A stretch of DNA of 64,000 nucleotides from an uncultured Hyphomicrobiales bacterium (GTDB lineage Bacteria > Bacteroidota > Ignavibacteria > Kapaibacteriales > UBA2268): NCBI GenBank assembly GCA_964645005.1, contig CAZXYS010000005.1, positions 56,698 to 120,697 on the forward strand, in the 5' to 3' direction. Each line of letters opens with the position of its first letter. Within the stretch, counting starts at the first letter, position 1. The notes under the pieces were generated by a model. That model saw only the letters and a list, made by a program, of their open reading frames with translations. It was not told the DNA's origin and ran no database searches. The position numbers and the translations under genes are program-made. Shown piece after piece: positions 17,542 to 54,868 of the stretch.

Positions 17542-18972
17542 TTATCTAATTTTGATTAGTGAACCGTCAATAACTTTTTTATGATGTGAGATTATATCAA
17601 AATAATAAATCCCACTTGATATGCCTTCCAATTTAAGTGGAATGATTAATTCCGGGGTTTTCTTCTCTTTTTCGATTTTCATAACATCAATCCCCATTTC
17701 ATTATAGATTTTTATTTTAATTTTTCCGGTGATAGATGATATAAAATGAAGTTCTGTAGTTCCCGTATTCGGATTTGGAGCTGTAAAAGCATTAGTTTCA
17801 ATATTTTGACGATTTATTATGTTAAAATCATCTTGAAAGACGGAAGATTTCTGCACTATTCCACTACAAAGAATGAAACAATCAGGATTTGCATCGCATT
17901 CATCATACCACTTTCCTCCAATTTTTGTTTCGACTTTTTCACCATTTTCATTGCATATTTTATATTCACTCCAGCAACATCCTTCCTCTTCACATGGAAT
18001 AACATGCGGTTGATTGCCAGGTTCGTTTTTCCAGCAATTATCGGTTAAGACTCTATAATCATAATAACATTCTCCATTTTCTTCAGGTTTAGGATGCTGT
18101 TCATCATCATGAAGGACATCCTTTTCAATAAAAGAATAAATATCATTCATCGTATATGAAGCGCAATCATCGCACTCAGGAGATGTGGTAAAATCATTAA
18201 TTTTGTAATCCTTATATTCTTTCGGAATAATTTGGTGTTCATCATTTACAAGTGTACAGTGTTGAGTTCTAATCTGGTAGTGATACTCAACATGACAACT
18301 TGTAGTCCCGCAGGGTATTGTTACTGTTTCGGTATATTCCTCAGGTTCCCAGTCCCCATAAAAGCAGTCCGCATCGCAAGGATTTTTTGTAACTGGATAT
18401 TGATCACACTCAGGTGCACATTCGGGCTGTGGGCAGTCAGGAAAGAAATCCCGTGGCTCAGGGTCTAAAAATGATCCTTTTTGATAATTTGGTGGATCTT
18501 CATAGAAAGTAACATCCATTAATTTTTTGCAGCATCTTTTTTCATAATCACATAAAATTCCATCCTCGTAGCATTCAGCATCTATGTATATATAGATGAA
18601 CGATTTATAATCATCATCAGGATACCTTCCCGTACTTATTAATTTATTATAAAAAGTTGTTGGGTCGGCTTGAGATTCTTGTGAGACTATTTCATGATAT
18701 AAAATTGATAAGACAATATGTATACAATTAAAACAGTCATCACCTCCATTATATTGGACATCATAGATTTGAACTTCAAATTCGTTTTCGTCATCTCCAG
18801 CCCATCTTGTTTGATATGTTATTTTCCAGCAACAATTCTCATCACAGGGAAAATCAGGATGGTTCAAATCATTAATTATATAGTCCGCACAGATTGTTCT
18901 TTGGTATTTCTGTCCCCAGTCAGTTTGATCTTCAGTTGGGCAAGGCTCGAAGGTGTCTGCAGCTAAAGGCAT
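17542..18972 (-). CDS. Cysteine-rich (30 Cys) protein with T9SS C-terminal sorting domain; signal peptide encoded out of frame upstream
   Basis: C-terminal APNPNTGTTELHF...IKIYNEMG...SGIYYFDII...LIKIR. The passenger carries recurring Cys clusters (CDENCCWK, CEEEGCCWSEY, CPQPECAPEC). The ORF as listed starts MPLAADTFEPC with no signal peptide. Confidence 0.7.
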   Translation of the reverse strand: MPLAADTFEPCPTEDQTDWGQKYQRTICADYIINDLNHPDFPCDENCCWKITYQTRWAGDDENEFEVQIYDVQYNGGDDCFNCIHIVLSILYHEIVSQESQADPTTFYNKLISTGRYPDDDYKSFIYIYIDAECYEDGILCDYEKRCCKKLMDVTFYEDPPNYQKGSFLDPEPRDFFPDCPQPECAPECDQYPVTKNPCDADCFYGDWEPEEYTETVTIPCGTTSCHVEYHYQIRTQHCTLVNDEHQIIPKEYKDYKINDFTTSPECDDCASYTMNDIYSFIEKDVLHDDEQHPKPEENGECYYDYRVLTDNCWKNEPGNQPHVIPCEEEGCCWSEYKICNENGEKVETKIGGKWYDECDANPDCFILCSGIVQKSSVFQDDFNIINRQNIETNAFTAPNPNTGTTELHFISSITGKIKIKIYNEMGIDVMKIEKEKKTPELIIPLKLEGISSGIYYFDIISHHKKVIDGSLIKIR

Positions 18973-18975
18973 TAC

Positions 18976-19000
18976 GAATAGAATAGAATAGAATAGAATA
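18976..19000. repeat. Pentanucleotide microsatellite (GAATA)5
   Basis: Five perfect tandem units read directly from the sequence, lying between an upstream ATG (19010, minus strand) and the ATG of the 17542-18972 ORF. Confidence 0.95.
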
Positions 19001-19336
19001 AGCTTTTCATGGTATCCCCCATGTTAATGTGATACATAAGTTTTTATTAAGTTAATTGCTATATCCCGCTCTAACCGATTATTTATTTGATATTTTGTAA
19101 AAAATAAATGAATCGGAAACACAGTAATACAACCTATTCAAATTTAATCAAAGAAACTATTAATAATTTAAATATAAATTTCCAAAAAGTCAAGCATATT
19201 AAATATATTTATTAATATTTTCTTTGAAATTTTTTAATTATACTTTTATTTTTTTAATAAATATGGATTTAATCGTTTTTTTATTTATATTTTAAGATTA
19301 AGGATATTCGCAAAAAACTAAAAATATATTCCAAAA

Positions 19337-20692
19337 ATGGCTGAAAACGACGAAATAAAAAAACAGGATCTTAATGAGATAATCCCCGAAGCGGGCAGTC
19401 TCTCGCAAAATCAGGAAGAATACATTCGGGCGCTGGAAATGTCCGTGCAGATGCTGCAGCGCGAAGTCGAGCACCTGCGCTCGCAAGCTCAATCCGCCGA
19501 TGAAGGAAAGCAGCCATCGCAGAAGCGTCCTTCCGGCATCGACGTGGACTATTCCGACTGCTCGAGTGAGCGCGAAGTCCACCTCAAATACCATAAAAAA
19601 CTCGCCGAAAATTTCGACATCCTCGAAAGCGACATATATTTCGTCACCTCGACGAAAGCCCTTCAACCCATTTCCGGCTCCGACACTTCGACCACGCTGG
19701 AACCAATTGTGAAAAACTTCGTCGAGGAAGGCATCATCGACTGGACTCTTGAAAACGGCAATGCGCGCGTCATACCCAATCTCGGCGATGAACTCGGCGA
19801 AACGCCTACATATTTCCTGCTTATCCCTTTGAAATTGCGGGGCGGCGCTCTGGGCGTTTTTATGGCAAGGACATCCCGACAGCCGAATGAATTTACGGAT
19901 GAAGATATTCAATATCTGACTTCATCAGCTTCGAGGACTGCGATAGCGCTGGATAACATACGTAGTTCCAACGAGATAGCAAAGATGAACAAACGGCTGG
20001 CATCACTAAACGAGCAAATGCTTGAATCAACAAAAATGGCTTCCATCGGCGAGCTAACCGCTGCCATCGCCGGCGAACTGGAAACACCCGTCAAGATGAT
20101 AGCAGGGCATCTTGACCTGCTCGAATCCGGCTTGGGCGACCAGAAGCGCAGACTGCAAATAATCCGTGAGCAGCTCGAGAAGATCACCAATATAACCTCG
20201 GGACTGGCAAATCTGGCTAAAACTTCAGGCAGAGAAGCCCAGCCCGCGGAAATAAATATCTGCTCGATGATAAACGAGGCTCTGCTGTTTTCCGGCTATC
20301 AGCTGCAGAGGGACGGCATCAGCATCGACAAGGAATTCGAGGATGAATCTCTGACTATCAAAGGCTCCCGCTCGCGCATAGAGCAGGCGCTGCTGAATTT
20401 GCTATTGCAGATAAGAGATCTGTCGCCGGAAGCAGACAAGATAACTATCGGCGTTTACAAGACCGGCAAGGATAAAGTATCCCTGCTCGTCAAGGATAAC
20501 GGTCCGGGCATGGACAATGACGAACTCAACAATATTCTCTCATCCGGCGAGCTCGATGACGAAGAAAAATCGAAGACTTCAGCCTTTATGACGGTGAAAA
20601 ATATCATTGAAGAGCATTCCGGAAGCATCGAAATTTTCTCTGAGGTCGGCAGAGGAACTACGTATAAAATTTTGTTACCTGTTTATAGATGA
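19337..20692 (+). CDS. GAF-domain histidine-kinase-like protein lacking the canonical phospho-acceptor His
   Basis: GAF-like core (LIPLKLRGGALGVFMA...), DHp-like MASIGELTAAIAGELETPV (Gly246, GGC at 20072-20074, where AHE is expected), and an HATPase_c domain with NLLLQI, DNGPGM and GRGTTYKILLP. Confidence 0.75.
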   Translation: MAENDEIKKQDLNEIIPEAGSLSQNQEEYIRALEMSVQMLQREVEHLRSQAQSADEGKQPSQKRPSGIDVDYSDCSSEREVHLKYHKKLAENFDILESDIYFVTSTKALQPISGSDTSTTLEPIVKNFVEEGIIDWTLENGNARVIPNLGDELGETPTYFLLIPLKLRGGALGVFMARTSRQPNEFTDEDIQYLTSSASRTAIALDNIRSSNEIAKMNKRLASLNEQMLESTKMASIGELTAAIAGELETPVKMIAGHLDLLESGLGDQKRRLQIIREQLEKITNITSGLANLAKTSGREAQPAEINICSMINEALLFSGYQLQRDGISIDKEFEDESLTIKGSRSRIEQALLNLLLQIRDLSPEADKITIGVYKTGKDKVSLLVKDNGPGMDNDELNNILSSGELDDEEKSKTSAFMTVKNIIEEHSGSIEIFSEVGRGTTYKILLPVYR

Positions 20693-22408: not shown

Positions 22409-22930
22409 ATGAAAATTAGTTATAGAATAATATTATCAAATTTTATAAATAAATTTCCAAGTGGAAAACTTTTGGTTTTTCCTTTGGTTTTCTTTCTTTT
22501 GATAGGTATAAATTCAGCTCAACCAATAAATTACGATCGTTATGACTATTTCAACCACAATTTTAACTTACTGACTTTAGAATTTCAGCAGACAGATGGC
22601 ACAAAATTTGCTGAAAATAGCAATAGCGGTATGGCTAACTCCCAGGCGGAAGCTGATACCAGCTCGAAAAACAGTATCGATAAGCTATACTACAACGGGC
22701 AGTCGCACGTTTTGGAGTTAGAACTTGAAGAAAATGTATCGAGAATAGAAATTAAAATCTATAACCTTATTGGCAAAGATGTTAAAACTGCGTACGAAGG
22801 GAAGCCTAAGCCAAAAGGAAGTGAATATCATCTCGAAACATCGGAACTTCCGCGGGGAGTTTACATCTGTACCGTTTTAGGAAAAGATTTTCTGTTAACA
22901 AGGAAGTTTATCGTCAAGAGTCAGGAATGA
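22409..22930 (+). CDS. Small secreted protein consisting mostly of a T9SS C-terminal sorting domain
   Basis: Signal/anchor segment, then IEIKIYNLIGKDV...RGVYICTVLGKDFLLTRKFIVK. Confidence 0.6.
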   Translation: MKISYRIILSNFINKFPSGKLLVFPLVFFLLIGINSAQPINYDRYDYFNHNFNLLTLEFQQTDGTKFAENSNSGMANSQAEADTSSKNSIDKLYYNGQSHVLELELEENVSRIEIKIYNLIGKDVKTAYEGKPKPKGSEYHLETSELPRGVYICTVLGKDFLLTRKFIVKSQE

Positions 22931-24042
22931 ATTTAATAAAAGACCAAACATCCGCGAAAATATTCATTGGAAAACGTTTTCCGAGAACAAGAAAAAAATT
23001 CGGAAGCATTGTCATTATTATAATGCTGTTCCTGCTATTTCTCGCCACAGTTCCATTCAAAATATATCCTCAATCCTACGGCGGCGGCTATTCGGAAGCA
23101 TACCTGCTGCGAGACGTAGGCGCCCGCCCAATTGCTATGAGCGGCGCTTACACAGCAGTTGTCAACGAGCCGTCAGCGATTTTCTACAATCCTGCCGGGC
23201 TCGGCTTTCTTGTCGATACGCCGATGGTGATGACCTCCTACTCATTCCTGGAATTTGGCAGGACGCACTCCGCCCTTGCATGGGGACAGTCGATATTGAA
23301 AAATCTCGGCGTTGGCGTCGGGATCAACAGCTTCACATCCGGCTCATTCGAAGGGCGCGATATAATGGGCAATCCACTCGGCACTATGACTGACTGGTCA
23401 TACTCCATTGTTGGCGGCGCATCTTACAGGATAGAATACGCCAGCATGGGCATCGCCGCAAAATATCTTACGAACAATCTTACCGGCTCTGACATTCAGG
23501 CAAACGGCTATTCTGTTGATATGGGCATGAAATTCAACATTGTCGATCTATTCTCTTTCGGCGTAGCAATGCAGAATGTTTCCGGCAAGATGTTCTGGAA
23601 CACAAAAAATGAGGATAGGGAGAATATACCATATACCATTCGCAGCGGCGTCGCTATGGAATTCGGGCTCAACAATGAAGAATACACCACACGAACAAAT
23701 ATAACCGGCGAACGGGAGCAGGTTGTCGTTCCGGCGACAAGATATGTCCTCGTAAGCATGGACTTTATGATGACGCAGTACGAGATAGCGCCAAAGCTTG
23801 TATTAGGCGCGGAAGCCATCATTCACGAGATGTTCGGGCTTCGCGGCGGCATAGCGCTATACGGCGAAAAGCTGGGCAAGCCGCAGCCCCTGCCTATGAA
23901 CATCTGGGGCGGCGGCGTAACCATCCGCCCGGAACTCGAAGGACTTCCCTTCCAGACTCACATCGATTACAGCATTTCTTCGGATTACATTTCCACCAGC
24001 GGAATTTCGCATAATCTATCACTTATGCTATATTTTGATTGA
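22927..24042 (+). CDS. PorV/PorQ-family-like outer-membrane beta-barrel
   Basis: GARPIAMSGAYTAVVNEPSAIFYNPAGLGF N-terminal signature, beta-strand-rich sequence, aromatic C-terminus (LMLYFD). Start overlaps the upstream stop (ATGA). Confidence 0.55.
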   Translation: MNLIKDQTSAKIFIGKRFPRTRKKFGSIVIIIMLFLLFLATVPFKIYPQSYGGGYSEAYLLRDVGARPIAMSGAYTAVVNEPSAIFYNPAGLGFLVDTPMVMTSYSFLEFGRTHSALAWGQSILKNLGVGVGINSFTSGSFEGRDIMGNPLGTMTDWSYSIVGGASYRIEYASMGIAAKYLTNNLTGSDIQANGYSVDMGMKFNIVDLFSFGVAMQNVSGKMFWNTKNEDRENIPYTIRSGVAMEFGLNNEEYTTRTNITGEREQVVVPATRYVLVSMDFMMTQYEIAPKLVLGAEAIIHEMFGLRGGIALYGEKLGKPQPLPMNIWGGGVTIRPELEGLPFQTHIDYSISSDYISTSGISHNLSLMLYFD

Positions 24043-24355
24043 GCAAAAAAAACTCGCCAAATCTCTTTCTAAGATATCCATAAGTATGTATAAAAACCAT
24101 TCCGGCGAATCTCTTTAGATCACGTTTCAGCGGAGCAGGAATCTAAAATTCCCCTGATTGAGGCGGGGTGGAATCTTCATTCGTAATTCATCATTCGTAA
24201 TTCGTAATTGAATCCCCCCCCCTCCGGTACTTTTACTTACAAAGTTGGACTTTGCCTTTAAAAAACTTACTCATGCCGAAAAAAAATTCCGCAACTTTTT
24301 TCTTACTTATGTGTTATTTTTTATAGGAAAAGAGAAAATCCTAAATTTCCAGAGT

Positions 24356-24490: not shown

Positions 24491-25882
24491 TTAATGCAGG
24501 TGAATTAACAAAAGGGTGCATACTCGGCTGGCTGCGTCCGGGGAATACTCATACCAGTAATAATTGCCCTGAATTTTTGAAGCAGACATTTTCAATGATC
24601 CCTTCTCAGACGAAAAAACTGCTGATAAGATTAGTATATCAGTATTTATATTATTGATCTCATCCCATATCCTGTCTGCCGGTGTACCAGCAACAATTCG
24701 GCTGGCACCTAAAGCAGGATCATTCCACCAATCATTAAAATTATGGTTCATATCCGTAATTGTTGATGGTGATTTTGTGTTGCCAAAAGAGGGATGCTGT
24801 CCAATTGATGGTATCCCGTCTCCACTTAGCTTTACATGAGCATAAAATTCATGCATATAGATAAATAACAGAGACTTAAATCTATGGACTTCTAATGAAC
24901 CTATATCCGAAGATTTTTTAATATTATCAGTATTAATACCTCTAAATATAAATTCTTTGAAACTAAGAAAGTCCTCATAAATTGATATTAATTGGTTCTT
25001 TGAAGCAGGTTTTTGCAAATTCAATCCGTCGAAATTAACAAATTTAATTTCATCTGGCGGTGTAGTAATCTTTTTCAAATCAAATAATCCTAACTTTGCA
25101 CCAACAATACCATTTTTAATACTAACATCGGAAGAATTATTTAAAGGTGCAGAAGTCCAACCACGAGTAGCTTTTTTTATTTTGGTAAAAGATAAGTAAG
25201 AATCATAATATGAAGAAATATATACATCAAAATCTCTATAGTTTGGTGAACTTGGCTCATTATACAATTCATTTAATTGTTTGCCATAGGAAGTATACAA
25301 CGATGCTTTATGAATTGCTTTCAAAATAGGAATATTCGCCAAGAATATATCTTCATCGCCAATATCCTTGAATATTACCGGATTATTTGCCAACCCGGCA
25401 TAAGGTGATAAAAACGGATATTTTGTAGATAGAGGGTCTCTACTTAACCAGCGCCCTACCCGGGGATCATAGAAGCGAGCGCCATAATCATAGCTATTTC
25501 CGGTTCCTGTATTTTGTCCGCTTATCATACTCTTATTTTCCTTCACCTCGTTATCCATTTCCATGCCGTTGAAGCCGCAACGGTGGCTGCTGCTCTGCCA
25601 GTGGCGACCGGGCTGCAGCATGCCGAACGGATAATAATCGTTTACCGCAAGGACATCCGCCTTGAAGCCGTTATAAGCCTGCGCGTCCGGCTGCTTGATG
25701 TCGCTTATCAGCAGCCGCACATTGCCGAGATGGTCTTTTATCTCGTAGCTCTTTTCTCCTATTACACGATTGAATGTCGTCGGTCGTGTAATGAAGTCCT
25801 CGGAATAGGCGAGGTCTTCGGCGGGGGTGATAGGGGTTCCTCTGTTATAACAACCAACGGAACAGTAAAACCCCAACTCCAT
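24491..25882 (-). CDS. Rhs/YD-repeat C-terminal fragment: RHS-associated core plus ~290-aa unknown C-terminal (toxin-like) domain; N-terminal shell absent
   Basis: YEIKDHLGNVRLLISD, NDYYPFGM, FNGMEMDNE, YDYGARFYDPRVGRWLSRDPL...SPYAGLANNPVIF is the RHS core signature. An in-frame TAA sits immediately upstream of the ATG. Confidence 0.8.
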   Translation of the reverse strand: MELGFYCSVGCYNRGTPITPAEDLAYSEDFITRPTTFNRVIGEKSYEIKDHLGNVRLLISDIKQPDAQAYNGFKADVLAVNDYYPFGMLQPGRHWQSSSHRCGFNGMEMDNEVKENKSMISGQNTGTGNSYDYGARFYDPRVGRWLSRDPLSTKYPFLSPYAGLANNPVIFKDIGDEDIFLANIPILKAIHKASLYTSYGKQLNELYNEPSSPNYRDFDVYISSYYDSYLSFTKIKKATRGWTSAPLNNSSDVSIKNGIVGAKLGLFDLKKITTPPDEIKFVNFDGLNLQKPASKNQLISIYEDFLSFKEFIFRGINTDNIKKSSDIGSLEVHRFKSLLFIYMHEFYAHVKLSGDGIPSIGQHPSFGNTKSPSTITDMNHNFNDWWNDPALGASRIVAGTPADRIWDEINNINTDILILSAVFSSEKGSLKMSASKIQGNYYWYEYSPDAASRVCTLLLIHLH

Positions 25883-26002
25883 TTACGCACGGTCAACCTG
25901 CGCAGCCTGTAACCCTAACCCTTAGCCGTTAACCTCTCTCCAAAATCGACCAACTCAACTATCAACCACCTCTCAAAAATATATCCCCCCAGACAAACGA
26001 GC

Positions 26003-53413: not shown

Positions 53414-54868
53414 TTATATTACCGGAAGTTCTTCCGGTGCGTTAGTAAGATATTTGCCGCCGTTTTTAGTGACGAAGATGTCGTCTTCCACCCTGATGCC
53501 AAATTTGCCCGGTAGATAAACGCCTGGTTCTATTGCCAGAACGCATTCGTCGGGTATTATCTGATCTGATTTTCTGAAAGTGATTATCGGTTTTTCGTGG
53601 GTTATGATACCTAAGCCGTGACCTAGAGAATGTTGGAAGTTGTCGCCGAAACCGGCTTTTTTGACTATGTCGCGTGCGACAGCGTCGAGGTGTTTGCCGT
53701 TCATTCCCGGACGCACCTGCGAGCAAGCTGCTTTCTGTGCCTGTCTCAGCATCTTGTAAATATCTTTCTGCTCTTTTGTGGCTTTGCCTATTACGAAAGT
53801 CCGGGTTATGTCCGAGCGGAAGCCATTAACCACGCAGCCAAAATCGAGCAGGATGATCTCATTTTTCTTTATTTTCTTATCGCTCGGTTGACCGTGTACC
53901 AAGGCGGCACGCGGACCGCTAACGGCTATAATGGGGAAGGCATCGCCCTCTGAGCCGTGCAGCCTGCTCTGATGAGCTATCTCGGTAGCTAATTCTTTTT
54001 CCGTCATTCCCGGCTGAATGAAATCGAGGATCTTGTTGTAAACATCTTCAGCCATTTTGCAGGCTTTTTTGATGTTTTCAAGCTCTTCAGGCGCTTTCGG
54101 GCGTGTAAATCGCTCAATCTCGTCAGGCGAGGGTTTGAACTTCACCGGACGGATCCTGTTTCTGATCTCAACTGCTTCACCGTATGGTAATGAATCCGCT
54201 TCAAAAGCAAGAGAATTTACATTTTTGAATACTTTATTTTTCTTTGCTGTTTCCCAAACATCTCGGGTTATGTGAATATGCAGATTAGGCAGTGGATAAA
54301 GCTCAGTCTTAACCTGCTCTTCGTATCTGTCATCCGTAAAGAAATGTATTGAATCCTTAAGGATAATAACAATAGCAGATGACCCTGAAAAATTAGTTAT
54401 ATACCTGATATTCGCAATATTGGTAATGACTAATCCATCAACTCTAATGTCCTCAAGTGTAAAACGTAATTGTTCTAACCTCCGCTCTGCCATCTTGGGA
54501 TAACCTTTTTTTGATGTAGTAATATCTTCCTTTTTGGTGGCAGCTTTACTTTCCGGAGCTGTTGTCTTTTTAGCAGTGGATTTTGTTGCTGTTGTCTGCT
54601 TTTTAGTTTCGGGCTGTTTTTTAGCAGTGCTCTGCTTTTTGCTGGCGGGCTGTTTTTTAGCAGTGCTCTGCTTTTTTGCCGGTGACTGCTTTTTTGTGGC
54701 AGTTTGTTTTTGGGTGGTAGACTTCTTTTTTGCAGCAGATTGCTTCTTTGAGGCTGCCGTTTTTTTGGCAGAAGCCGATTTAACAGCAGGTTTCTTTGAT
54801 GCTGTAGTCTTTTTTCCCTTTGTGGTTTTGTTTGATTTGGTTGTTGCTTTTGCCATATTGATCCGCAA
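53414..54868 (-). CDS. pepP: M24B Xaa-Pro aminopeptidase with a ~115-aa Lys/Ala/Thr-rich histone-H1-like N-terminal extension
   Basis: C-terminal pita-bread domain (DFGCVVNGFRSDITRT, HSLGHGLG, EPGVY, VEDD). N-terminal AKKTAASKKQSAAKKKSTTQKQTATKKQSPAKKQSTAKKQPASKKQSTAKKQPETKKQ. Alternative start at 54856. Confidence 0.85.
   Translation of the reverse strand: MRINMAKATTKSNKTTKGKKTTASKKPAVKSASAKKTAASKKQSAAKKKSTTQKQTATKKQSPAKKQSTAKKQPASKKQSTAKKQPETKKQTTATKSTAKKTTAPESKAATKKEDITTSKKGYPKMAERRLEQLRFTLEDIRVDGLVITNIANIRYITNFSGSSAIVIILKDSIHFFTDDRYEEQVKTELYPLPNLHIHITRDVWETAKKNKVFKNVNSLAFEADSLPYGEAVEIRNRIRPVKFKPSPDEIERFTRPKAPEELENIKKACKMAEDVYNKILDFIQPGMTEKELATEIAHQSRLHGSEGDAFPIIAVSGPRAALVHGQPSDKKIKKNEIILLDFGCVVNGFRSDITRTFVIGKATKEQKDIYKMLRQAQKAACSQVRPGMNGKHLDAVARDIVKKAGFGDNFQHSLGHGLGIITHEKPIITFRKSDQIIPDECVLAIEPGVYLPGKFGIRVEDDIFVTKNGGKYLTNAPEELPVI

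What the first reader, a model, noticed from the sequence alone, without database searches (positions are those of the whole stretch)
18970..19010. (GAATA)5 tract separates a signal-peptide start from the Cys-rich T9SS cargo ORF: candidate slipped-strand phase switch, OFF in this sequence
Seen:
- Five perfect GAATA units lie at 18976-19000 (TATTC on the coding strand).
- On the minus strand an ATG at 19010 opens MKSLFYSILFYS and stops at TAA (18974-18972).
- The long ORF starts at the overlapping ATG (TAATG, 18972). Its product begins MPLAADTFEPC with no signal peptide, yet it ends in a T9SS sorting domain.
- The two ATGs are 38 nt apart, which is out of frame. Losing one unit (33 nt) or gaining two (48 nt) fuses them in frame. 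The 4-unit form would read MKSLFYSILFVMPLAADTFEPC..., a plausible Sec signal with an AxA-like site.

Established: T9SS cargo needs Sec export first, and short tandem repeats in 5' coding regions are the classical mechanism of contingency-locus phase variation.

Inference: repeat-number change toggles surface display of this protein. One alternative is termination-reinitiation at TAATG, yielding a cytoplasmic product, which is hard to reconcile with the sorting domain. The other is an assembly or consensus artefact.
Basis: partly seen in the sequence, partly recalled or inferred. Interest (0 to 1): 0.7.

Follow-up and report, generated by a model that had tools for sequence, protein, structure and literature searches.

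The report
Repeat-driven on/off switch in a secreted protein gene
A five-copy TATTC repeat knocks the export signal of a cysteine-rich surface-protein gene out of frame, and distant relatives in uncultured Kapabacteria-like bacteria carry other short repeats at the same spot (one pair caught ON versus OFF), so this is most likely a slipped-strand on/off switch of the kind known from Neisseria, here in environmental bacteria.

Summary
(TATTC)5 on the coding (minus) strand (18976-19000) lies between an ATG with a ribosome-binding site (19010) and an intact 476-aa, 30-Cys ORF with a T9SS sorting domain. The two are 38 nt apart, so they are out of frame. Alleles with 4, 7 or 10 units would fuse them.

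The protein belongs to an unnamed family (134 representatives) that is always followed by a BNR beta-propeller T9SS cargo gene. I read the DNA of twelve family genes and one tandem paralogue. Ten of these thirteen carry a short repeat at the signal-peptide/mature junction, of five kinds: TATTC, TTATTGC, CTTGCTT, poly-C (three genes) and TA. Six are out of frame.

The closest homologue (about 35% identity) was found in two strains that are 99.2% identical. Their only indel in 7.4 kb is one TTATTGC unit, which gives OFF (4.4 units) versus ON (5.4 units, full signal peptide).

For the window's own gene only the 5-unit OFF allele was seen: the window and two sequencing runs, all one strain. Switching at this locus is therefore inferred, not shown.

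The mechanism matches Neisseria opa (CTCTT in the leader peptide). The gene family, the secretion route and the lineage are new.

The parts
19165..19193 (-). Promoter-like site TTGACT-17 nt-TAAATT, about 155 nt upstream of the start codon (weak evidence)
   Evidence: It matches 9 of 12 consensus positions, but such matches are not enriched over shuffles in this AT-rich region.
19015..19020 (-). Shine-Dalgarno-like GGGGGA, 4 nt upstream of the ATG at 19010
   Evidence: A GGAG-type motif lies 4-9 nt before the signal-peptide ATG in 10 of 11 family loci. There is none before the ATG at 18972.
18972..19010 (-). Truncated signal-peptide reading frame, MKSLFYSILFYS plus stop (ATG 19010-19008, TAA 18974-18972). 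This is the true translation start of the gene.
   Evidence: Homologues have a signal peptide here.
18976..19000 (-). (TATTC)5 short repeat ((GAATA)5 on the + strand), the proposed slippage tract. It encodes YSILF in every frame. ON at 4, 7 or 10 units; OFF at 5.
17542..18972 (-). Intact 476-aa ORF for the mature cysteine-rich protein (30 Cys). It lacks a signal peptide in the present frame.
   Evidence: All 21 invariant Cys columns of the family alignment are present. The AlphaFold2 model has mean pLDDT 84.8.
17569..17778 (-). T9SS type A C-terminal sorting domain (aa 399-468)
   Evidence: PF18962 27.3 bits (cut-off 27); TIGR04183 25.8 bits (cut-off 23).
15925..17328 (-). Conserved downstream partner: a 467-aa BNR/Sortilin-like beta-propeller T9SS cargo with its own signal peptide (MKKIFLLIIFFFLNFSLLFS)
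   Evidence: The same gene order is seen in L003, L085, L087, L089, L092, L093 and L095.
22927..24042 (+). Context: a PorV/PorQ-family outer-membrane T9SS component, 4 kb away
   Evidence: NF033709 90.7 bits (cut-off 90).

Best explanation
The gene at 19010..17542 (minus strand) encodes a Sec-exported, T9SS-sorted, disulfide-rich surface or secreted protein.

Its signal-peptide coding region contains a perfect (TATTC)5 tract. Slipped-strand mispairing during replication adds or removes 5-nt units.
- With 4, 7 or 10 units, the ATG at 19010 reads through into the mature protein. The 4-unit form gives MKSLFYSILFVMPLAA|DTFEPC..., a canonical n-h-c signal with P at -5 and L-A-A before the predicted cleavage site.
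- With 5 units, as sequenced, translation from the ribosome-binding-site-equipped ATG stops after 12 codons. No exportable protein is made, so the gene is OFF.

Because 5 and 3 are coprime, the tract encodes the same hydrophobic pentapeptide (YSILF) in every frame. Unit changes therefore alter only the downstream frame and the length of the h-region. This is the logic of Neisseria opa.

What is shown:
- the anatomy of the locus;
- the homology of the fused frame to homologues' signal peptides;
- the recurrence of short repeats at this junction in the family;
- a natural ON/OFF pair, differing by one unit, in the nearest homologue.

What is inferred:
- that this particular tract switches at an appreciable rate;
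- that switching is adaptive, for example bet-hedging against phage or predators that recognise the surface protein.
For: 1. Anatomy and the allele table are confirmed.
2. The Shine-Dalgarno-like motif lies before the ATG at 19010 and not before the ATG at 18972. This pattern is shared by 10 of 11 family starts.
3. An exhaustive phmmer search found a family of 134 representatives. The query's first residues align 10-30 residues inside the homologues, which means the homologues have N-terminal signal peptides that this ORF lacks.
4. The closest homologue was found in two states. L003 has (TTATTGC)4.4, and its ATG frame stops inside the tract (OFF). L093 has 5.4 units and gives a 479-aa protein with the signal peptide MKRYNFIAYCLLLIAYCLIFVPSLKA (ON). 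The two loci are 99.2% identical over 7.4 kb, and the only indel is one repeat unit.
5. Other members, 25-42% identical to one another, carry repeats at the same junction:
   - (TTCTTGC)5.7, ON, in two tandem paralogues (L087/L099 and L100);
   - (CTTGCTT) of at least 4.3 units at a contig end (L085);
   - poly-C11, OFF (L089-L091, three assemblies);
   - poly-C12, OFF (L092);
   - poly-C11, OFF (L094, from the same sample as the window);
   - (TA)7.5, OFF (L096/L097).
6. Enrichment. In 51.7 kb of family loci, 9 of 10 short repeats lie in the signal-peptide zone of 80 nt or less, and none lies in the partner genes. The background is 8 per 310 kb in related genomes.
7. The tract meets published phase-variation cut-offs: pentanucleotide at least 5, units of 6-9 nt at least 3, poly-G/C at least 9 (PMC5953494).
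8. T9SS context: a sorting domain on the protein, a PorV/PorQ-family gene 4 kb away, and at least five other cargo genes with sorting domains in the window.
Against: - Only the 5-unit allele is seen for this locus. The window and Logan contigs from SRR7048228 and SRR7048220 are the same strain, with 1 SNP in 6.3 kb.
- No ON allele of this protein exists among about 15 billion catalogued proteins; its cluster has one member.
- No orthologue closer than about 35% identity was found, so conservation of this particular tract cannot be assessed.
- Five units is the minimum of the accepted range, so the switching rate may be low.
- My sample of family loci was biased towards proteins called without a signal peptide. 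Three of those turned out to be plain mis-called starts with no repeat (L084, L086, L095).
- Signal-peptide quality was judged by rule and by homology, not with SignalP.
- Poly-C lengths in long-read assemblies (L092) can be miscalled.
Confidence: 0.72

Rival explanations
1. Fixed frameshift. The gene was inactivated once by a +1-unit slip and is now a young pseudogene. The repeat is not an evolved switch.
For: Only the OFF allele is observed in the three assemblies. There is no ON allele in the protein collection. Five units is a short tract.
Against: - The 1.43-kb ORF downstream is fully open and keeps all invariant cysteines and the sorting domain.
- The tract is perfect.
- Independent repeats of five kinds sit at the same junction in relatives, and one is polymorphic ON/OFF. 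This is not expected from random decay.
Confidence: 0.15
2. The 5-unit form is expressed anyway. This would happen by termination-reinitiation at TAATG, or by ribosomal or transcriptional slippage on the repeat.
For: The stop and start codons overlap (TAATG). Transcriptional slippage is known on long homopolymers (my own knowledge) and could make the poly-C members leaky.
Against: - Reinitiation would give a protein without a signal peptide but with 30 cysteines and a T9SS sorting domain. Sorting requires prior Sec export (established knowledge of T9SS).
- There is no Shine-Dalgarno motif before the ATG at 18972.
- Pentanucleotide tracts are not known slippery sites for RNA polymerase or ribosomes.
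- Rfam finds no regulatory RNA in the window.
Confidence: 0.08
3. Assembly or consensus artefact. The true sequence has 4 or 7 units.
For: Repeats can be mis-assembled. One family contig (L085) ends inside its repeat.
Against: - The tract is 25 nt, shorter than typical assembly k-mers.
- It is reproduced identically in the window and in contigs assembled separately from two runs.
- The 7-nt difference between L003 and L093 cannot be a base-calling error.
Confidence: 0.03

Closest known systems
Neisseria opa genes (CTCTT pentanucleotide coding repeat in the leader peptide)
   Same: - A pentanucleotide, pyrimidine-rich repeat lies inside the signal-peptide coding region.
- It encodes hydrophobic residues in all frames.
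- Unit gain or loss moves the mature protein in or out of frame while transcription continues (PMC6803597).
- It is a multi-copy family with several independently switching loci per genome. Here, OY762428.1 carries at least two family genes, one JGI contig carries two in tandem, and the window's sample carries two.
   Different: - There is no sequence or fold relationship. Opa is an 8-stranded outer-membrane barrel. This is a roughly 480-aa, 30-Cys soluble-domain protein with a T9SS sorting domain.
- The tract is short: 5 units here, against 5-24 for opa-type CTTCT tracts in PMC5953494.
- The family uses several unit types rather than one.
- The hosts are uncultured Kapabacteria/Ignavibacteria-like bacteria, not mucosal pathogens.
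- Switching has not been measured.
Contingency loci of Haemophilus, Campylobacter and Helicobacter (tetranucleotide repeats and poly-G/C tracts in 5' coding regions)
   Same: - The switch is translational and driven by a short repeat.
- The poly-C11/12 tracts in family members P0034, P0017 and P0046 match the poly-G/C class and exceed the cut-off of 9.
   Different: Those loci are mostly LOS/capsule transferases, restriction-modification genes or adhesins of host-adapted bacteria. Here the target is one uncharacterised T9SS cargo family, and the tract is tied to the signal-peptide/mature junction.
T9SS type A cargo proteins of Bacteroidota (Por_Secre_tail, TIGR04183)
   Same: A C-terminal sorting domain, a need for an N-terminal Sec signal, and a PorV/PorQ-family gene nearby.
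   Different: Ten papers in the held library contain both 'phase-variable' and 'T9SS', but none has either term in its title or abstract, and I did not open them. No top hit among papers on phase variation and simple sequence repeats mentions type IX secretion. Known Bacteroides surface variation uses invertible promoters (my own knowledge).

Membership tests
Short-repeat (SSR) translational phase-variable gene (contingency locus) | Perfect short tandem repeat at or above the accepted length cut-off | tested here: met
   (TATTC)5 with 100% matches. The cut-off for pentanucleotides is 5 units (PMC5953494), so this tract sits exactly at the minimum.
Short-repeat (SSR) translational phase-variable gene (contingency locus) | The repeat lies within the 5' coding region, its unit is not a multiple of 3, and unit changes toggle an otherwise intact ORF | tested here: met
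   Allele reconstruction: ON at 1, 4, 7 and 10 units, OFF otherwise. The downstream ORF of 476 aa is intact.
Short-repeat (SSR) translational phase-variable gene (contingency locus) | Repeat-number polymorphism among cells or strains at this locus | tested here: not met
   All three available assemblies carry 5 units, but they are the same strain, so the test is weak.
Short-repeat (SSR) translational phase-variable gene (contingency locus) | Repeat-number polymorphism with an ON/OFF consequence in homologous loci | tested here: met
   L003 (4.4 units, OFF) versus L093 (5.4 units, ON). This is the only indel in 7.4 kb at 99.2% identity.
Short-repeat (SSR) translational phase-variable gene (contingency locus) | Repeats enriched at this position relative to the genomic background | tested here: met
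   9 of 10 repeats in 51.7 kb of family loci lie in the signal-peptide zone. The background is 8 per 310 kb, and the only such repeat in the 64-kb window is the finding itself. Locus sampling was biased towards genes called without a signal peptide.
Short-repeat (SSR) translational phase-variable gene (contingency locus) | High-frequency, reversible switching of expression | not testable with these tools
   This needs culture, reporter or deep-read data.
T9SS type A cargo | C-terminal Por_Secre_tail / TIGR04183 domain | tested here: met
   PF18962 27.3 bits against 27, and TIGR04183 25.8 against 23, at aa 399-468. The scores are marginal, but the domain is conserved across the family (PNP motif and Ig-like strands). 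NCBI names member P0018 a T9SS type A sorting domain protein.
T9SS type A cargo | N-terminal Sec signal peptide | tested here: inconclusive
   It is absent in the sequenced frame. It is present only in the reconstructed 4-, 7- and 10-unit alleles: K at position 2, a hydrophobic core of 12 or more residues, and P-L-A-A before D. It aligns with homologues' signal peptides. SignalP was not available.
T9SS type A cargo | T9SS machinery in the same genome | tested here: met
   A PorV/PorQ-family protein at 22927-24042 scores 90.7 bits against a cut-off of 90. There are several other sorting-domain cargo genes in the window. Core components (SprA, GldK-N) were not searched.
Neisseria Opa protein family | Homology to the Opa 8-stranded outer-membrane barrel | tested here: not met
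   Pfam and NCBIfam match only the T9SS tail. Foldseek against the PDB matches only Ig-like domains, with TM-score (normalised to the query) of 0.18 or less. The likeness to Opa is in mechanism only.

The most novel reading that the evidence does not exclude
Uncultured Kapabacteria/Ignavibacteria-like bacteria may carry an opa-like, multi-copy family of cysteine-rich T9SS surface proteins, each paired with a beta-propeller partner. In this reading the signal-peptide/mature junction has repeatedly and independently acquired hypermutable tracts (penta-, hepta- and dinucleotide repeats and poly-C). Each cell would then display a stochastic subset of the family. That would be combinatorial surface phase variation in free-living environmental bacteria, presumably driven by phage or predator pressure rather than by a host immune system.
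Probability: 0.5. Interest if true: 0.8.

Novelty: new member of a known kind. Interest (0 to 1): 0.7.

Why it matters
Repeat-driven phase variation is textbook biology for host-adapted pathogens. It is hardly documented in uncultured environmental lineages, and I found no paper in the held library centred on phase variation of T9SS cargo.

- Bet-hedging by contingency loci extends to the Kapabacteria/Ignavibacteria group.
- An uncharacterised, disulfide-rich surface protein and its beta-propeller partner are marked as being under strong fluctuating selection. They are candidate phage receptors or adhesins.
- There is a practical annotation problem. Gene callers report these genes as cargo without a signal peptide, or start them at internal codons, so 'OFF' alleles are mis-annotated in metagenome catalogues.

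The hypothesis can be tested directly from existing reads.

Tried and rejected
- A word-indexed homology search with the ORF found only itself. The same search with the family alignment returned two proteins, and with P0034 only itself. These searches were uninformative. Only the exhaustive phmmer search revealed the family.
- A DNA pattern search for the locus with a variable-length tract found nothing in GTDB genomes or in JGI metagenomes.
- Protein-guided locus searches with the window protein and with P0034 in GTDB genomes found nothing.
- A Markov-simulation test of pentanucleotide runs timed out. I replaced it with empirical background counts.
- Rfam and tRNA scans of the window found nothing.
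- The Foldseek search of the AlphaFold2 model matched only Ig-like domains, so it gave no functional lead for the cysteine-rich core.
- Three family members called without a signal peptide (P0014, P0026, P0005) were simply mis-called starts, with an in-frame signal peptide and no repeat.
- The longer cluster-mate of P0011 (P0136) is only an upstream start call, not a repeat variant.
- Sample accessions could not be linked to any paper, so the habitat is unknown.
Full report
**1. The observation**

Reading the minus strand of 18700-19400 shows ...catGGGGGAtaccATGAAAAGCT(TATTC)5GTAATGCCTTTAGCTGCAGAC....
- Tandem Repeats Finder reports GAATA x5.0 with 100% matches at 18976-19000.
- The ATG at 19010 translates to MKSLFYSILFYS and then a stop.
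- The stop TAA (18974-18972) overlaps the ATG (18972) of a 476-aa ORF, 18972..17542, that begins MPLAADTFEPC.
- Rebuilding alleles with 1-10 units shows a fused ORF at n = 1, 4, 7 and 10. The sequenced n = 5 gives a 12-aa peptide, and n = 3, 6 and 9 give peptides of 22-32 aa.
- The tract is the only pentanucleotide run of 3 or more copies in the 64-kb window.

**2. What the gene is**

Pfam and NCBIfam find only a T9SS type A sorting domain at aa 399-468, just above threshold. The mature part has 30 cysteines.

An exhaustive phmmer scan of 1.84 billion cluster representatives found 134 relatives, 43 of them below 1e-10. Full-length members are 465-515 aa long. They share 21 invariant cysteine columns and the C-terminal PNP...G sorting domain.

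In these alignments the window protein's residues 5-10 match residues 15-41 of the homologues. The homologues therefore have an N-terminal extension, a signal peptide, that this ORF lacks.

NCBI names one member (P0018) 'T9SS type A sorting domain-containing protein [Candidatus Kapaibacterium sp.]'.

An AlphaFold2 model built with the family alignment is confident (mean pLDDT 84.8). Its core has no Foldseek match in the PDB; only the Ig-like tail matches, with TM-score (normalised to the query) of 0.18 or less. The biochemical function is unknown.

In every locus where the downstream sequence is available, the gene is followed by a BNR/Sortilin-like beta-propeller T9SS cargo. In the window this is 17328..15925.

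The window also encodes a PorV/PorQ-family T9SS protein at 22927-24042 and several other sorting-domain cargo genes.

The polyphosphate kinase in the window is at most 69% identical to those of Ignavibacteria and Kapabacteria MAGs. The source is therefore an uncultured member of that group without a close reference genome.

**3. Which ATG is the real start**

A GGAG-type motif lies 4-9 nt upstream of the signal-peptide ATG in 10 of 11 family loci. In the window it is GGGGGA at 19020-19015. The ATG at 18972 is preceded only by the repeat.

The fused 4-unit reading MKSLFYSILFVMPLAA|DTFEPCPTE lines up with the closest homologue's MKRYNFIAYCLLLIAYCLIFVPSLKA|DYDPCPE. The match includes the F-V encoded just after the tract.

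So the frame that starts at 19010 is the ancestral, functional one, and the 5-unit allele is one slip away from it.

**4. Comparative evidence for switching**

I retrieved DNA for eleven other family genes. I chose mostly those whose called protein lacked a signal peptide, which is a biased sample.

| Gene / locus | Tract at the junction | State |
|---|---|---|
| P0002 / L003 | (TTATTGC)4.4 | OFF: the ATG frame stops in the tract and the gene caller used an internal TTG |
| P0135 / L093 (orthologue of P0002, Kapabacteria chromosome OY762428.1) | (TTATTGC)5.4 | ON: complete signal peptide |
| P0010 / L087, L088, L099 | (TTCTTGC)5.7 | ON: signal peptide ...ILASCFLLLASCFLAI |
| Tandem paralogue / L100 (59% identical to P0010, same contig) | (TTCTTGC)5.7, with an identical 5' region | ON |
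| P0019 / L085 | (CTTGCTT), at least 4.3 units | Contig ends in the tract; the frame is open |
| P0034 / L089-L091 | poly-C11 | OFF: signal peptide in another frame, same in three assemblies |
| P0017 / L092 | poly-C12 | OFF; same 5.46-Mb chromosome as P0135 |
| P0046 / L094 | poly-C11 | OFF; from SRR7048228, the window's own sample |
| P0052 / L096, L097 | (TA)7.5 | OFF |
| P0014 / L084, P0026 / L086, P0005 / L095 | none | In-frame signal peptide; only the start was mis-called |

Further points:
- L003 and L093 are 99.2% identical over 7.4 kb, with 51 substitutions. Their only indel is one TTATTGC unit. I had predicted that adding one unit would restore the frame before I saw the second assembly.
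- P0019 is only 42% identical to P0010, yet both carry the same heptanucleotide unit.
- The repeat-bearing members are 25-42% identical to each other. The tracts are therefore either anciently maintained or repeatedly acquired.
- Under uniform criteria, 9 of the 10 short repeats in 51.7 kb of family loci lie in the signal-peptide zone of 80 nt or less, and none lies in the partner genes. Related genomes show 8 per 310 kb.
- All coding-repeat units are T-rich and free of stop codons, and they encode hydrophobic residues in every frame: TATTC gives YSILF, TTATTGC gives LLLIAYC, CTTGCTT gives LASCFLL, and TA gives YI. This is what a signal-peptide h-region tolerates.
- The poly-C tracts sit on the conserved PPP motif just before the first cysteine.

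**5. What is not shown**

For the window's own locus I saw only five units. The two Logan contigs (L001, L002) are the same strain as the window, with 1 SNP in 6.3 kb.

No ON allele of this protein exists in the 15-billion-protein collection. No orthologue closer than about 35% identity was found.

Five units is the lower bound of published cut-offs (PMC5953494).

Switching at this tract is therefore inferred from its anatomy and from family behaviour.

**6. Mechanism and rivals**

The best explanation, at about 0.72 confidence, is slipped-strand change in TATTC number that toggles translation of an exportable protein, with the sequenced allele OFF.

The rivals are:
- a fixed frameshift or young pseudogene (about 0.15). 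Against it stand the intact ORF, the perfect tract and the family pattern;
- expression of the 5-unit form by reinitiation at TAATG or by slippage (about 0.08). Against it stand the lack of a ribosome-binding site and the uselessness of a cytoplasmic, 30-Cys protein with a sorting domain;
- an assembly artefact (about 0.03). Against it stands the identical 25-nt tract in separately assembled runs.

**7. Comparison with known systems**

The closest analogue is Neisseria opa. There, CTCTT pentanucleotide repeats in the leader-peptide coding region shift the mature protein in and out of frame, and several loci per genome switch independently (PMC6803597; PMC5953494). The likeness is in mechanism only, because there is no homology to Opa.

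The poly-C members resemble the poly-G/C contingency loci of Campylobacter, Helicobacter and Neisseria.

Literature searches gave the following:
- Ten papers contain both 'phase-variable' and 'T9SS', none with either term in its title or abstract. I did not open them, so I cannot say that none describes phase variation of T9SS cargo.
- None of the top papers on phase variation and simple sequence repeats mentions type IX secretion.
- A search combining contingency loci, metagenome, homopolymeric tract and Bacteroidota found nothing relevant.
- A search combining Kapabacteria and type IX secretion found nothing relevant.

**8. Verdict**

This is a new member of a known kind of switch, in a new protein family, secretion route and lineage. 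The comparative survey adds a family-wide pattern: five kinds of repeat at one junction, and one natural ON/OFF pair.

The decisive test is simple and uses existing data: count tract lengths in the raw reads.

Noticed in passing
L099 401-1915 and L100 401-1909 (JGI contig Ga0209381_1003111, 3573-5887 and 6592-8900): Two tandem copies of the cysteine-rich gene are only 59% identical overall, yet they share an identical upstream region, signal peptide and (TTCTTGC)5.7 tract. This looks like a common 5' cassette kept uniform by gene conversion, as in opa families.
   Followed up: partly
L094 1525-1535 (Logan SRR7048228_43763): A second family member (P0046, 27% identical to the window protein) comes from the same sequencing run as the window's strain. 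It has a poly-C11 that puts its signal peptide (MKKSNYLLAALAAFMCLVFVNSSHA...) out of frame. It is also recorded from NCBI on a 66-kb contig, so it may belong to the same MAG. If so, the organism would have at least two switchable copies, both OFF.
   Followed up: partly
window 15925-17328 (-), and the gene after the cysteine-rich gene in L003, L085, L087, L089, L092, L093 and L095: The cysteine-rich cargo is always followed by a BNR/Sortilin-like beta-propeller T9SS cargo that has its own signal peptide and no repeat. This is a conserved two-gene module of unknown function. Whether OFF alleles affect the partner by polarity is unknown.
   Followed up: partly
window 15468-15627: A nearly perfect 42-bp tandem repeat (3.8 copies, 99% matches) lies just downstream of the BNR gene. 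The overlapping 119-aa minus-strand ORF reads (SKLKHAVASDCKII)n and matches no family. Its nature is unknown.
   Followed up: partly
window 24179-24222: (ATTCGTA)4.4 is immediately followed by poly-C9, in the 450-nt gap between the 3' ends of the PorV/PorQ-like gene and the Rhs-core gene. No convincing ORF starts nearby, so no switch target is evident.
   Followed up: partly
window 24491-25882 (-): A 463-aa ORF has an RHS repeat-associated core motif (TIGR03696, aa 83-173) and a C-terminal region of about 290 aa that matches no family. It has no long N-terminal RHS/YD repeat region. It looks like an orphan Rhs toxin tip.
   Followed up: no
L012 3132-3166, L013 3414-3453, L015 3189-3228: In related Kapabacteria-like MAGs, the non-coding DNA just downstream of ppk carries hepta- or octanucleotide arrays (AGTCGTC x5, TTTAGTTC x5, GGTTATTA x5) embedded in degenerate copies. 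The window has a degenerate version after its own ppk gene (about 25890-26000). Their purpose is unknown.
   Followed up: partly
model m4fab6b7c1204 (window 17542-18972): The confident AlphaFold2 model of the cysteine-rich core (aa 20-370, pLDDT mostly above 85) has no Foldseek match in the PDB. It may be a fold with no solved representative.
   Followed up: partly
L084, L086, L095 and L003 gene starts: Gene callers often mis-place the start of family members. They use an internal ATG or TTG, which drops the signal peptide. Catalogue proteins of this family therefore look like cargo without a signal peptide even when the gene is intact.
   Followed up: yes
window 54595-54676: A 36-bp repeat (2.3 copies, 91% matches) lies in the 5' part of the Xaa-Pro peptidase-like gene (53414-54868, minus strand).
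   Followed up: no
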